Shown one piece after another: positions 1-6,430 of a stretch of 6,430 bases of DNA. The position numbers and the translations under genes are program-made. Numbering within the stretch: the first letter of the stretch is position 1; every line of letters starts with the position of its first letter. Origin of the DNA: a virus (Duplodnaviria > Heunggongvirae > Uroviricota > Caudoviricetes); IMG/VR virus record IMGVR_UViG_2711768008_000001. The stretch is one strand, 5' to 3'. Below the pieces are notes generated by a model. The model saw nothing but the letters and a program-made list of their open reading frames with translations, searched no databases and was not told the origin of the DNA.

Positions 1-22
1 AACTCAGCTCACCGTCGAACAC
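1..22 (-). CDS. T: 5' end of the T reading frame (C-terminal extension of the gpGT tail assembly chaperone fusion); partial, continues beyond the window start
   Basis: The -1 frame relative to G stays open from the slippery site through G's stop to position 1 (GGG AAA GTG TTC GAC GGT GAG CTG AGT ...). Position 22 corresponds to the lambda T start when aligned on the G stop. No independent start codon or RBS is expected because T is made only as a G-T fusion. Confidence 0.5.
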
Positions 23-426
23 TTTCCCGCAGAAACAGGCTCTGCAGGCCCGGCGTCCTCTGCCTGTTCAGGAGCATCATTCACCACAAACTCATACATA
101 CCGGACAGCCGGTACACCACGTTTTCAGCATGAGAAATTGCCTCTGTGGGCCAGGTGGTAAGCACTTCCTGCTCAATCTGTTTAACGGCTTCATTCATGG
201 ACGGCATCTGCGTCTTCTTCGGATGGTTATGCCACAGGGACATCGCAACCACAAAAGCGCCGGTTCTGATGGCGTCTTCCACAGTAAACTTCCGGTTGCT
301 GTCTGACTCCGCCTGTTCTGCCTGCCGTTTCATCAGGTCGAGATGCTCAATACGCTGCAGGGCTGACAGTTCAGAAAGCGTGACGGTCACACCGTTATGT
401 TCAAATGATTCGGTTTTCAGGAACAT
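4..426 (-). CDS. G: Tail assembly chaperone gpG
   Basis: 140 aa ORF (MFLKTESFEHNGVTVTLSELSALQRIEHL...AGKCSTVS) matching lambda G as recalled. ATG at 426 with upstream GGAGAG; TGA at 4-6. Length of 423 nt equals lambda G. Confidence 0.95.
   Translation of the reverse strand: MFLKTESFEHNGVTVTLSELSALQRIEHLDLMKRQAEQAESDSNRKFTVEDAIRTGAFVVAMSLWHNHPKKTQMPSMNEAVKQIEQEVLTTWPTEAISHAENVVYRLSGMYEFVVNDAPEQAEDAGPAEPVSAGKCSTVS
22..28 (-). promoter_or_regulatory. Programmed -1 ribosomal frameshift slippery heptamer G GGA AAG for the G to G-T fusion
   Basis: Plus strand 22-28 is CTTTCCC, so the minus strand reads GGGAAAG. It sits in the G frame as GCG GGA AAG, six codons before the G stop, the same context as the lambda G/GT recoding site. 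Confidence 0.75.
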
Positions 427-1189: not shown

Positions 1190-1442
1190 TCACATTTCAT
1201 AGATAATGACATAAGTCAGATCGGCTGAACTCCACAGGCCCGCATCATCGTCGCGCCGGTAGTCATAGCCGCTGGCCACCATACTGGTGATCAAATCTGA
1301 CAGTGCCGGGATATCGCTCATCACAGGATAAATCCGGGACTCCATCNNNNNNNNNNNNNNNNNNNNNNNNNNNNNNNNNNNNNNNNNNNNNNNNNNNNNN
1401 NNNNNNNNNNNNNNNNNNNNNNNNNNNNNNNNNNNNNTTCAT
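1190..1442 (-). CDS. U: Tail terminator protein gpU, interrupted by the N-run 1347-1437
   Basis: ATG at 1442-1440 overlaps the Z stop as ATGA. Hand translation of the minus strand 1346 to 1190 gives [51 protein letters not shown] then TGA, matching the lambda U C-terminus. The start and the C-terminal fragment are out of frame with each other across the gap. Confidence 0.85.
1347..1437. other. Run of 91 N (assembly gap or masked sequence) inside gene U
   Basis: Seen directly as unbroken N. The flanking U fragments are not in frame across it, so its length is not the true length. Confidence 0.99.
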
Positions 1443-3914: not shown

Positions 3915-4247
3915 TTAAACGATGCTGATTGCCGTTCCGGCAAACACGGTCCGTTTTTTCGTCTCGTCGCTGGCAGCCTCCGGCCAGAGCACATCCTCAT
4001 AACGGAACGTGCCGGACTTGTAGAACGTCAGTGTGGTGCTGGTCTGGTCAGCAGCAACCGCAAGAATGCCAACGGCAGCACCGTCGGTGGTGCCATCCCA
4101 CGCAACCAGCTTACGGGTGGAGGTGTCCAGCATCAGCGGGGTCATTGCAGGCGCTTTCGCACTCAATCCGCCGGGCGCGGTTGCGGTATGAGCCGGGTCA
4201 CTGTTGCCCAGCGGCTGGTAATGGGTAAAGGTTTCTTTGCTCGTCAT
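3915..4247 (-). CDS. D: Head decoration protein gpD
   Basis: ATG at 4247 ([41 protein letters not shown]...AGTAISIV) gives 110 aa, equal to lambda D, with AAGGGA upstream; TAA at 3915-3917. It lies 10 nt after the C/Nu3 stop, as in lambda. Confidence 0.95.
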
Positions 4248-4256
4248 AAACATCCC

Positions 4257-4703
4257 TTACACTGGTGTGTTCAGCAAATCGTTAACGGCATCAGATGCCG
4301 GGTTACCTGCAGCCAGCGGTGCCGGTGCCCCCTGCATCAGACGATCCAGCGCAGTGTCACTGCGCGTCTGTGCACTCTGTGGTGCTGCGGCCAGAATACG
4401 GCGGGCCGTTTCCACGGTCATACCGGGGGTTTCGGCCAGCACGCGTGCCTGTTCTTCGCGTCCGTGAGCCTCCTCACAGTTGAGGATCCCCATAATGCGA
4501 CTGTTTTCTGCCGCAACCGCTGCGGTGATCTGCGCGTTCACGTCCGGCTGCGCCGCGCTGGCGTTCTCGCCCTCCGTCGCTTGCACCACGCCAGTAACGT
4601 CAGCCTGCGAAGCAGTGGCTGAAACAGTTGTTGATTGAGTCTCTTTGGTCATTCGCCCTCCTGAGAGACGGGATTTACGTGCATCCAGTGCATCACGCAT
4701 GAC
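4257..4703 (-). CDS. Nu3: Capsid scaffolding protein Nu3, C-terminal portion, in frame with and identical to the C-terminus of gpC; start lies in the N-run
   Basis: The frame is open from the gap edge at 4703 (VMRDALDARKSRLSGGRMTKETQSTTVSATASQADVTG...DAVNDLLNTPV) to TAA at 4257-4259. It matches the shared C/Nu3 C-terminus of lambda. The roughly 201 aa Nu3 would start upstream of the 148 visible codons, inside the gap. Confidence 0.8.
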   Translation of the reverse strand, partial: VMRDALDARKSRLSGGRMTKETQSTTVSATASQADVTGVVQATEGENASAAQPDVNAQITAAVAAENSRIMGILNCEEAHGREEQARVLAETPGMTVETARRILAAAPQSAQTRSDTALDRLMQGAPAPLAAGNPASDAVNDLLNTPV

Positions 4704-5454
4704 NNNNNNNNNNNNNNNNNNNNNNNNNNNNNNNNNNNNNNNNNNNNNNNNNNNNNNNNNNNNNNNNNNNNNNNNNNNNNNNNNNNNNNNNNNNNNNNNN
4801 NNNNNNNNNNNNNNNNNNNNNNNNNNNNNNNNNNNNNNNNNNNNNNNNNNNNNNNNNNNNNNNNNNNNNNNNNNNNNNNNNNNNNNNNNNNNNNNNNNNN
4901 NNNNNNNNNNNNNNNNNNNNNNNNNNNNNNNNNNNNNNNNNNNNNNNNNNNNNNNNNNNNNNNNNNNNNNNATTGGCCAGCGCCCATACCGGCTTTATGT
5001 CACGCACACGGGCGATGATGTCAGCGCAGTCAAATGCTCCCGCCACCATTCCGCCCGGTGTGTCCATATCGAGCAGAATGCCGTCCACCATCGGGTCGCT
5101 GGCAGCCTGTTGCAGACGGGCGATAATGCCGTTGTAACCGGTCATCCCCGAGTACGGCTGCAGCGCCCGCGTCCGGCTGACCAGCGTGCCGGACACCGGC
5201 AGCACGGCGATGCCGTTCATTACCTGATAACTGCGGGCCTGTCGTGGTCCGTCATCATCACCGGATAACGCCAGCGCCGCGGGTGCCTCTCCGGCAGTCA
5301 GGCTGTCGCCGGATACTGCATCCGTCAGGCAGCTGATCCCAAGCTGGCCTGCAAGCGCACAAAAGAAAACCCGCGCATAGGCGGGTTCAAGCATCAGCGG
5401 CTCATTAAAAGCCATGCTGGCAATATGCGGGAGATTACGCAGCTCTGCTGTCAC
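4257..5454 (-). CDS. C: Prohead protease / minor capsid protein gpC (S49 peptidase family), interrupted by the N-run 4704-4971
   Basis: GTG start at 5454-5452 preceded by GGAGG at 5461-5465. The N-terminal 161 aa (TAELRNLPHIASMAFNEPLMLEPAYARVFFCALAGQLG...IKPVWALAN) match lambda C and the C-terminal fragment resumes after the gap. The two fragments are not in frame with each other across the gap. Confidence 0.88.
4704..4971. other. Run of 268 N (assembly gap or masked sequence) inside gene C / Nu3
   Basis: Seen directly as unbroken N. The flanking C fragments are in different frames, and the span is about 120 nt shorter than the recalled lambda C length would require. Confidence 0.99.
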
Positions 5455-6430
5455 TCTTCTCCTCCTCTGTTGATTGTCGCAGCCCGGATTCAAATGCCGC
5501 AGCCGCCCAGGCGGGCGGTTTAAGACCAGCTGCGCGGCGCTCCATCGTTTCACGGACCTGCTGGGCAAAAATTTCCTGATAGTCGTCACCGCGTTTCGCG
5601 CACTCTTTCTCGTAGGTGCTCAGTCCGGCTTCTATCAGCATCACCGCTTCCTGAACTTCTTTCAGACCATCGATGGCCATACGACCGGAGCCTATCCAGT
5701 CGCAGTTCCCCCAGGCACTGCGGGCTTCCTGAAAACTGAAGCGCGCTTTTGAAGGTAACGTCACCACGCGGCGAACGATGGCCTCTTCCAGCCAGCACAG
5801 AAACATCTGGCTCGCCTGACGGGATGCGACGAATTTTCGCCGCCCCATAAAGTACGCCCACGACTCGTTCGCACTGGCCCGTGCCGTGGAGTAGCTCATC
5901 TGGGCGTAATTCCGGGAAAGTTGCTCATACGAGACACCCAGCCCGGCAGCGATATACCGCAACAGTGACTGCTCAAACACGGAGTAGCCGTTATCCGTGT
6001 CCTGAGCCGTCTGCAGGTTCAGTGAGTCCCCCGGCATCAGGTGCGGCACTTTTGCGCCTCCCAGACGGACCGGTGCTGCGGCGTAATACGCGGCAATTTC
6101 ACCAATCCAGCCCGTCAGCCTTTCCCGCTGCTCCTTACTGTTCGCGCCCAGAATAAAATCCATCGCTGACTGCGTATCCAGCTCACTTTCAATGGTGGCG
6201 GCATACATCGCCTTCACAATGGCGCTCTGCAGCTGCGTGTTCTGCAGCGTGTCGAGCATCTTCATCTGCTCCATTACGCTGTAAAACACATTTGCACCGC
6301 GGGTCTGCCCGTCCTCCACGGGTTCAAAAACGTGAATGAACGAGGCGCGCCCGCCGGGTAACTCACGGGGTATCCATGTCCATTTCTGCGGCATCCAGCC
6401 AGGATAGCCGTCCTCGCTGACGTAATATCC
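5435..6430 (-). CDS. B: Portal protein gpB, C-terminal 331 codons; N-terminus beyond the window end
   Basis: The frame is open from the window edge at 6430 to TAA at 5435-5437 (...GYYVSEDGYPGWMPQKWTWIPRELPGGRASFIHVFEPVEDGQTRGANVFYSVMEQMKMLD...STEEEKSDSRAA), matching lambda B. It overlaps the C start by 20 nt, as in lambda. Confidence 0.93.
   Translation of the reverse strand, partial: GYYVSEDGYPGWMPQKWTWIPRELPGGRASFIHVFEPVEDGQTRGANVFYSVMEQMKMLDTLQNTQLQSAIVKAMYAATIESELDTQSAMDFILGANSKEQRERLTGWIGEIAAYYAAAPVRLGGAKVPHLMPGDSLNLQTAQDTDNGYSVFEQSLLRYIAAGLGVSYEQLSRNYAQMSYSTARASANESWAYFMGRRKFVASRQASQMFLCWLEEAIVRRVVTLPSKARFSFQEARSAWGNCDWIGSGRMAIDGLKEVQEAVMLIEAGLSTYEKECAKRGDDYQEIFAQQVRETMERRAAGLKPPAWAAAAFESGLRQSTEEEKSDSRAA

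What the first reader, a model, noticed from the sequence alone, without database searches (positions are those of the whole stretch)
4257..5470. C with nested in-frame Nu3, a GTG start and a 20 nt overlap with B
C begins at GTG 5454 behind a strong GGAGG and overlaps the 3' end of B by 20 nt. Its C-terminal third is the scaffold Nu3, made from an internal in-frame start. That internal start and its RBS should lie in the N-run, so the Nu3 initiation context cannot be inspected here.
Basis: partly seen in the sequence, partly recalled or inferred. Interest (0 to 1): 0.4.

Follow-up and report, generated by a model that had tools for sequence, protein, structure and literature searches.

The report
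Lambda C/Nu3 gene with assembly gap
This is the well-known head protease/scaffold gene (C with nested Nu3) of a lambda-like prophage, interrupted by an assembly gap of arbitrary length; the conserved internal start that makes the scaffold is probably not hidden in the gap but is readable at 4650-4662.

Summary
The window is the reverse complement of a whole public draft contig, CWVN01000203.1 (probably Shigella sonnei). It carries lambda-type head and tail genes. The GTG at 5454, the GGAGG six bases upstream and the 20-nt overlap with portal gene B are all real and identical to lambda.

The 268-N run is a scaffold gap in the public record, and its length is not true. In 85 lambda-clade C genes it corresponds to 390 nt (codons 162-291), so the two visible halves are out of frame as written. 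A complete chromosome whose C flanks are 100% identical has an intact 439-codon C.

The gap hides most of the S49 protease fold (residues 81-298), the Ser166/Lys218 dyad and Met239, the GenBank nu3 start. That ATG has no Shine-Dalgarno, lies inside the protease fold and is Ile in the N15 and phage 21 clades.

A strong AGGAGGG-CGA-ATG at 4662-4650 (Met309) is an ATG with a Shine-Dalgarno in 169 of 170 distinct homologues. It is the annotated nested start in N15, phi80, phage 21 and Salvo, and gives a 131-aa product, the "C-terminal third".

Verdict: a known feature.

The parts
5435..6430 (-). 3' two-thirds of portal gene B. It runs off the contig end; its stop TAA is at 5437-5435.
   Evidence: ORF list. 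Pfam Phage_portal_2 on the public gene call of the same contig. 99.9% identical to L285.
5461..5465 (-). Shine-Dalgarno GGAGG of C, within AGAGGAGGAGAAGA, 6 nt before the GTG.
   Evidence: Duplex energy is -12.0 kcal/mol. The sequence is identical in lambda.
5452..5454 (-). GTG start codon of C.
   Evidence: GTG is found in all 85 lambda-clade sequences, and it is the annotated start in lambda.
5435..5454 (-). 20-nt overlap of the B 3' end with the C 5' end.
   Evidence: The overlap is also 20 nt in lambda and N15, 11 nt in phage 21 and 8 nt in Salvo.
4972..5454 (-). Visible codons 1-161 of C: the N-terminal region and the first part of the S49 fold.
   Evidence: 483/483 nt identical to L285 and 160/161 aa identical to A38. 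Family hits are below threshold only.
4704..4971 (.). Scaffold gap of 268 N. It stands for about 390 nt, codons 162-291, which hold Ser166, Lys218, Met239 and most of the S49 fold.
   Evidence: The N-run is present in the public record CWVN01000203.1. The segment is 390 nt in the 85 lambda-clade C genes and in L285. Gap sizes in sister assemblies are wrong by -139 to +417 nt.
4257..4703 (-). Visible codons 292-439 of C plus the stop codon.
   Evidence: 447/447 nt identical to L285 and to A38.
4656..4662 (-). Internal Shine-Dalgarno AGGAGGG. It is encoded as Ser-Gly-Gly, with the Gly-Gly pair written GGA GGG.
   Evidence: Duplex energy is -10.8 kcal/mol, the strongest of all in-frame start codons in C. 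The first Gly is always GGA (156/156), against 13.5% use of GGA elsewhere in these genes.
4650..4652 (-). In-frame ATG (Met309 of C), the probable start of the scaffold protein.
   Evidence: ATG in 169/170 distinct homologues. It aligns with the annotated nested starts of N15, phage 21 and Salvo and phi80.
4257..4652 (-). Nested 131-codon scaffold ORF (Nu3-type), in the same frame and with the same stop as C.
   Evidence: phrog_8399 'head scaffolding protein', residues 1-131 of a 131-residue profile, E=1.4e-78. It is called as a separate gene in the public record.
3915..4247 (-). Decoration gene D, starting 9 nt after the stop of C.
   Evidence: ORF. Pfam HDPD on the public gene call.

Best explanation
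The region is gene C of a lambda-like prophage in a draft contig.

What the gene encodes. C encodes an S49 (SppA-type) serine protease fused to a C-terminal scaffold domain. Translation of full-length C starts at GTG 5454, behind a strong SD that lies inside the end of portal gene B. A second, internal SD+ATG at 4662-4650 (Met309, just past the end of the protease fold) starts translation of the last 131 codons alone. This gives the scaffold protein (Nu3), whose sequence equals the C-terminal 30% of C.

Inferred from established lambda biology, not shown here. Because protease and scaffold share this domain, a few protease molecules are built into the procapsid together with many scaffold molecules. 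The protease then digests scaffold and itself before DNA packaging.

The gap. The 268-N run is a scaffolding gap of arbitrary length, not a biological feature. It conceals about 390 nt: the catalytic Ser166/Lys218 and the ATG that GenBank calls the nu3 start (Met239). The gene is most probably intact.
For: Identity of the locus. The visible parts are 96-98% identical to lambda C and 99-100% identical to E. coli A38. They are 100% identical to the C gene of complete chromosome CP045526.1 (L285), which is 1320 nt and carries no internal stop. The gene order is portal-C-D-E-FI-FII-Z-U-V-G.

S49 membership. The full-length relative hits Pfam PF01343 at 149.7 bits, residues 150-297. It aligns with B. 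subtilis SppA structures over residues 81-298, with Ser166 opposite the catalytic Ser and Lys218 opposite the position mutated to Ala in those crystals. Ser is kept in 168/170 and Lys in 169/170 homologues.

Internal start. The annotated nested starts of N15 (residue 311), phage 21 (302) and Salvo (307) fall in the same alignment column as lambda Met309. ATG is present in 169/170 sequences, with SD energies of -10.8, -9.9, -12.0 and about -6.8 kcal/mol in the four clades, in the top 1% or so of codon positions of each gene. The SD is kept through different peptides: GG encoded as GGA-GGN in 156/156, and RS with the rare AGG codon in Salvo-like phages. PHROG 8399 is a 131-aa 'head scaffolding protein' family that matches residues 309-439 end to end.

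Gap. The window equals contig CWVN01000203.1 with the same N-runs. The second N-run is also too short, 91 against 234 nt. Sister assemblies have gaps elsewhere, with length errors of -139 to +417 nt.
Against: GenBank and RefSeq lambda, HK630 and phage 434 annotate nu3 at Met239, giving 201 aa. PHROG 8940 is a 201-aa family. I could not read the primary papers on the Nu3 N-terminus: Medina 2010 and 2011 and Liu 2013 are not held in the library.

No expression data were examined. The hidden sequence of this isolate was not seen. In another isolate with the same 131-aa allele, an IS1 end abuts C codon 285 or so, so disruption does occur in this lineage.

One SD-like motif followed by a start codon is expected by chance at this density.
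Confidence: 0.82

Rival explanations
1. The scaffold is the 201-aa protein of the GenBank annotation. It would start at Met239, which lies under the N-run. The AGGAGGG-ATG at 4662-4650 would then be only a Gly-Gly-Arg-Met coding stretch.
For: Lambda, HK630 and phage 434 records annotate 5132..5737 or its equivalent. ATG is present at codon 239 in all 42 distinct lambda-clade sequences. PHROG 8940 is a 201-aa family.
Against: There is no SD: GTCCGGGA[A/G]ACACTGCAGTCCCGG ATG, -0.5 kcal/mol. The codon is ATC, ATT or ATA (Ile) in all 68 N15/phi80-clade and 46 of 47 phage 21-clade sequences, and Leu, Ile or Val in Salvo-like phages. It lies in the middle of the S49 fold, residues 81-298. N15's nested start, 'assigned by similarity with lambda', is at the Met309 equivalent. 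Public annotation is inconsistent: one lambda hybrid record uses codon 207.
Confidence: 0.12
2. C is a pseudogene in this isolate. The gap would hide an IS1 insertion, a 122-nt deletion or a frameshift, so only the 131-aa ORF remains expressible, if anything does.
For: The two halves are out of frame as written. In a contig from another sample (L273), the terminal 27 nt of IS1 are joined to C 20 nt upstream of the position that matches window 4703. Shigella prophages are often degraded by IS elements (own knowledge).
Against: The N-run is a scaffolder's estimate. The second gap in this contig and the gaps in sister assemblies are wrong by -139 to +417 nt, and they fall at different single-copy places. 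A sister assembly reads 22 nt past the L273 IS1 junction along the C sequence. The nearest complete chromosome (10 mismatches in 6071 nt, C flanks identical) has an intact 1320-nt C. All 85 lambda-clade C genes compared are 1320 nt.
Confidence: 0.08
3. Both internal starts are used in the lambda clade, giving three nested products of 439, 201 and 131 aa.
For: Both ATGs are present in every lambda-clade sequence. Both product sizes exist as annotated families.
Against: The Met239 site has no SD and no special accessibility: mean unpaired probability is 0.45-0.47, against 0.56 for Met309. The lambda clade is too uniform for its ATG239 to count as conservation.
Confidence: 0.1

Closest known systems
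Bacteriophage lambda genes C and nu3 (NC_001416 4418..5737)
   Same: Same start codon, same SD and same 20-nt overlap with B. The visible parts are 96-98% identical in nucleotides. Same stop and same downstream genes D and E.
   Different: A few amino-acid substitutions. The middle 390 nt are replaced by 268 N in this draft contig. The RefSeq nu3 coordinate (Met239) is not the start that comparative data support.
N15 gene 5/gene 6, phi80 gene 5/gene 6, phage 21 gene 5/gene 6 (nested protease/scaffold genes)
   Same: An S49 protease with an in-frame nested scaffold gene. The annotated start, with its SD, aligns with window ATG 4652.
   Different: 54-75% amino-acid identity. Phage 21 has a triplicated scaffold repeat (the 'Tri boxes') and a 200-aa nested product. 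N15 starts gene 5 with ATG.
SppA signal peptide peptidases (family S49; PDB 3rst, 4kwb, 3bf0)
   Same: Same fold region and the same Ser/Lys dyad in full-length relatives.
   Different: SppA is a membrane-associated host enzyme with no scaffold domain. In the window itself, the homologous core is under the gap.
Herpesvirus UL26/UL26.5 and phage P2 gpO (protease-scaffold fusions; own knowledge)
   Same: A protease and a scaffold share a C-terminal domain, so that the protease is co-assembled into the procapsid.
   Different: The proteases are unrelated. Herpesviruses use a nested transcript rather than an internal ribosome binding site. P2 makes one protein.

Membership tests
Peptidase family S49 (SppA-like) | Match to the family profile above the curated threshold (Pfam PF01343) | tested here: inconclusive
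   The visible 161-aa and 148-aa pieces give no PF01343 hit. They give only sub-threshold NfeD1b_N (22.4 of 40 bits) and TIGR00706 (27.5 of 155 bits). The full-length A38 relative scores 149.7 bits over residues 150-297, and L285, whose flanks are identical, carries PF01343. Most of the domain lies under the N-run.
Peptidase family S49 (SppA-like) | Catalytic Ser/Lys dyad | not testable with these tools
   The positions (Ser166, Lys218) are hidden in 4704-4971. In relatives they are kept in 168/170 and 169/170 sequences and align with the SppA dyad.
Lambda-type nested protease/scaffold gene (C/Nu3) | Gene directly follows, and overlaps, the portal gene, with its own SD and start | tested here: met
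   GTG at 5454, GGAGG at 5465-5461, 20-nt overlap.
Lambda-type nested protease/scaffold gene (C/Nu3) | In-frame internal SD plus start codon downstream of the protease domain | tested here: met
   AGGAGGG at 4662-4656 and ATG at 4652-4650. Conserved in 169/170 homologues and equal to the annotated nested starts of N15, phi80, phage 21 and Salvo.
Lambda-type nested protease/scaffold gene (C/Nu3) | C-terminal domain homologous to the Nu3 scaffold | tested here: met
   phrog_8399, residues 1-131 of 131, E=1.4e-78; phrog_8940, positions 71-201 of 201.
Lambda-type nested protease/scaffold gene (C/Nu3) | One uninterrupted reading frame from the C start to the shared stop | tested here: inconclusive
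   As written, the span is 1198 nt and the halves are out of frame. The cause is a scaffold gap of untrue length. The gene is intact in L285.
GenBank-type Nu3 (201 aa, start at Met239) | Internal ATG with a ribosome binding site about 201 codons before the stop | tested here: not met
   The site is hidden in the window. In relatives the ATG exists only in the lambda clade, has no SD (-0.5 kcal/mol) and is Ile, Leu or Val elsewhere.

The most novel reading that the evidence does not exclude
The nu3 coordinate in GenBank and RefSeq lambda (Met239, 201 aa), copied into many phage records, is not the functional start. The scaffold of lambda-type phages would be the 131-aa product that starts at the conserved SD+ATG (Met309). 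A more exotic variant is that the lambda clade alone has gained an extra SD-less start at Met239, so that three nested proteins come from one frame.
Probability: 0.75. Interest if true: 0.25.

Novelty: already known. Interest (0 to 1): 0.12.

Why it matters
There is little biology at stake. C/Nu3 is a textbook nested gene, and this copy sits in a fragmentary draft contig.

The practical points are three:
- N-runs in draft scaffolds cannot be used to count codons or to judge reading frame.
- The widely copied lambda nu3 coordinate is not supported by comparative evidence. Public records place the nested start at three different codons (207, 239 and 309).
- The conserved internal ribosome binding site is a clean example of an SD kept by selection inside a coding sequence, using rare GGA and AGG codons.

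Tried and rejected
Literature. I tried to read Medina 2010 and 2011, Liu 2013 and Casjens & Hendrix 2015 for the experimental Nu3 N-terminus. None is held. Nine text searches gave no statement on it.

Source search. An exact-pattern scan of genome contigs found only two non-identical relatives: a Shigella flexneri chromosome and a contig filed under an Akkermansia MAG. The true source came from the exact-protein look-up.

Length-true N-run. I considered that the N-run might be length-true, which would imply a 122-nt deletion. I rejected this because of the second gap, the sister assemblies and the near-identical complete chromosome.

IS1 under the gap. I judged this unlikely but did not exclude it.

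Other in-frame starts. Codons 207, 245 and 293 were tested as alternative conserved starts. None combines a start codon with an SD across the clades.

mRNA accessibility. Prediction gave only a weak preference for Met309.

Exact look-up of the 131-aa and 201-aa proteins. Both exist in public sources, but the names do not settle which one is made.

Full report
WHAT THE WINDOW IS

On the minus strand the window carries a lambda-type late operon: portal B (3' part), C, D, E, FI, FII, Z, U, V and G. It has two N-runs, at 1347-1437 (91 nt) and 4704-4971 (268 nt).

An exact-protein look-up showed that the reverse complement of the window is the whole of public contig CWVN01000203.1 (6430 nt) of assembly GCA_001248525.1, with the same two N-runs. 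Proteins identical to the window's are named as Shigella sonnei in NCBI. The N-runs are therefore scaffolding gaps in a draft assembly.

CHECK OF THE OBSERVATION

- GTG lies at 5454-5452, preceded by AGAGGAGGAGAAGA. GGAGG is at 5465-5461 with a 6-nt spacer, and the duplex with the anti-SD is -12.0 kcal/mol.
- B ends with TAA at 5437-5435, so the overlap is 20 nt.
- C ends with TAA at 4259-4257.
- The 44 nt upstream of the GTG are identical to lambda, where this GTG (4418) is the annotated C start and B ends at 4437.

These parts of the finding are correct.

However, 5454..4257 is 1198 nt, which is not a multiple of three, and the two visible halves are in different frames. Lambda, E. coli A38 and 83 further lambda-clade loci (80 of them viral contigs) all have a C gene of 1320 nt. 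In every aligned relative the N-run corresponds to 390 nt, codons 162-291. The N-run is 122 nt too short.

The gap in U is also too short, 91 against 234 nt. Sister assemblies of the same project carry gaps at other single-copy places, with length errors from -139 to +417 nt. The length of the N-run therefore carries no information, and codon counting across it is meaningless.

WHAT IS UNDER THE GAP

The closest complete genome found is chromosome CP045526.1 (L285). It differs from the window at 10 of 6071 visible positions. Over the two visible parts of C it is identical: 483/483 and 447/447 nt. Its C gene is intact, 439 codons. Its 390-nt fill encodes DMNCSAGQ...STDAIT.

In full-length relatives:
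- Pfam Peptidase_S49 covers residues 150-297, and TIGR00706 covers 82-294.
- B. subtilis SppA structures align over residues 81-298. Ser166 lies opposite the SppA nucleophile. Lys218 lies opposite the position that is Ala in those mutant crystals (the residue numbers of SppA are from my own knowledge).
- Ser166 is kept in 168 and Lys218 in 169 of 170 distinct homologues.

So most of the protease fold and both catalytic residues are hidden. On its own visible sequence the window does not reach any S49 threshold.

THE INTERNAL START

GenBank and RefSeq lambda place nu3 at 5132..5737. This is Met239 of C and gives 201 aa.

In 85 lambda-clade sequences its context is GTCCGGGA[A/G]ACACTGCAGTCCCGG ATG, with no Shine-Dalgarno at a usable distance (-0.5 kcal/mol). 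In N15, 74.5% identical, the codon is ATC.

I collected 270 loci from four clades (lambda, N15/phi80, phage 21 and Xylella Salvo-like). This gave 170 distinct proteins. Across them:

| Position | Codon | SD |
|---|---|---|
| Column of Met239 | ATG in only 42 sequences (all in the lambda clade); Ile in 119, Leu in 5, Val in 3 | none |
| Column of Met309 | ATG in 169 | -10.8, -9.9, -12.0 and about -6.8 kcal/mol in the four clades |

At Met309 the SD energy is in about the top 1% of codon positions of each gene.

The annotated nested scaffold genes all start in the column of Met309: N15 (residue 311, 'assigned by similarity with lambda'), phi80 (137 aa), phage 21 (residue 302, with an annotated RBS) and Salvo (residue 307, with an annotated RBS).

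The SD is maintained at the nucleotide level through different peptides. Gly-Gly is always written GGA-GGN (156/156), although GGA is 13.5% of Gly codons elsewhere in these genes. Salvo-like phages write Arg-Ser as AGG-AGT, although AGG is 0.5% of their Arg codons.

Other in-frame candidates (codons 207, 245 and 293) do not combine a start codon with an SD across the clades.

Met309 lies just after the end of the S49 fold, whereas Met239 lies in its middle. The 131-aa product is 30% of C, the 'C-terminal third'; 201 aa would be 46%.

PHROGs holds both a 201-aa family (8940) and a 131-aa 'head scaffolding protein' family (8399). The latter matches residues 309-439 end to end. Public records are inconsistent: one lambda hybrid uses codon 207. 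A phage 434 record annotates codon 239 but carries a note, 'real Nu3 start ...', that the tool cut off.

In the window this conserved site is visible:
- AGGAGGG at 4662-4656
- CGA spacer
- ATG at 4652-4650
- 131 codons to the shared stop

The public annotation of this very contig calls it as a gene.

The motif alone is not statistically remarkable: 5 GGAGG-N3-9-DTG sites against 4.8 expected. All five are on the coding strand, and three are the true starts of C, FI and FII. The argument rests on conservation.

MECHANISM

Shown here:
- Two in-frame initiation sites with strong SDs on one reading frame.
- The first lies inside the end of the portal gene.
- The second lies directly after the protease domain.
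- The C-terminal 131 residues are homologous to annotated scaffold proteins.

Inferred from established lambda biology (Shaw & Murialdo 1980; Medina et al. 2010; cited from memory, not read here):
- The short product is the abundant scaffold.
- The long product carries the same domain, and so is co-assembled in a few copies.
- After shell assembly it degrades scaffold and itself.

Predicted mRNA accessibility is slightly higher at Met309 (0.56) than at the C start (0.38-0.47). This is weak support for a higher scaffold output.

RIVALS

(a) The GenBank 201-aa start is the real one. Only annotation supports it; conservation, the lack of an SD and the fold boundary count against it.

(b) C is disrupted in this isolate. 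In another sample with the same 131-aa allele, a contig begins with the terminal 27 nt of IS1 joined to C about codon 285, so this does happen. For this contig, though, the gap edges differ from those of a sister assembly, which reads through that junction, and the nearest complete genome is intact.

(c) Both starts are used.

VERDICT

This is a known gene arrangement in an ordinary draft contig. The descriptive part of the finding is right. The inference that the internal start is unreadable is probably wrong, and the N-run was wrongly taken as length-true. Novelty: already known. Interest is low.

Noticed in passing
window 1347-1437: A second N-run lies inside tail gene U. It is 91 N where relatives have 234 nt, so U is also out of frame as written. 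It is likewise a scaffold gap in the public record.
   Followed up: yes
window 22-28 (minus strand): GGGAAAG lies near the 3' end of gene G. This is the slippery heptamer of the lambda G/G-T -1 frameshift (own knowledge). The contig ends shortly after it.
   Followed up: no
window 6047-6061 (minus strand): GGAGGCGCAAAAGTG lies inside portal gene B. It is a GGAGG followed after 7 nt by a GTG in the B frame (Val in ...LGGAKVPH...). It could be chance; conservation outside the lambda clade was not tested.
   Followed up: no
L273 1-27 (Logan SRR14334183): The contig starts with the terminal 27 nt of IS1, identical to the end of IS1A in E. coli K-12 (L293 97-123). These are joined to C about codon 285. 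IS1 has therefore disrupted C in at least one isolate that carries the same 131-aa allele.
   Followed up: partly
L003 (SFDX01000070.1): A 3137-nt contig filed as 'MAG: Akkermansia muciniphila' is 97-98% identical to this enterobacterial lambda-like head region. It is probably a binning contaminant.
   Followed up: no
L296 36-737; L294 991-1596; L085 1331-1744: Public phage records place the nested scaffold start at three different codons: 207 (Lambda imm434), 239 (lambda, HK630, 434) and the equivalent of 309 (N15, phi80, phage 21). The phage 434 record has a note, 'real Nu3 start ...', that was cut off in the output.
   Followed up: partly
L086 1565-1959: The scaffold part of phage 21 contains three annotated 'Tri box' repeats. 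Each encodes a copy of the motif that is single in lambda (IMGILNCEEAHGRE...TPGMTV..ARRILAAAP). This explains its 200-aa nested product.
   Followed up: no
window 1 and 6430: The window is a complete contig that ends inside genes G and B. Sister assemblies break this prophage at many different places, which suggests low coverage or heavy fragmentation rather than a structural feature.
   Followed up: partly
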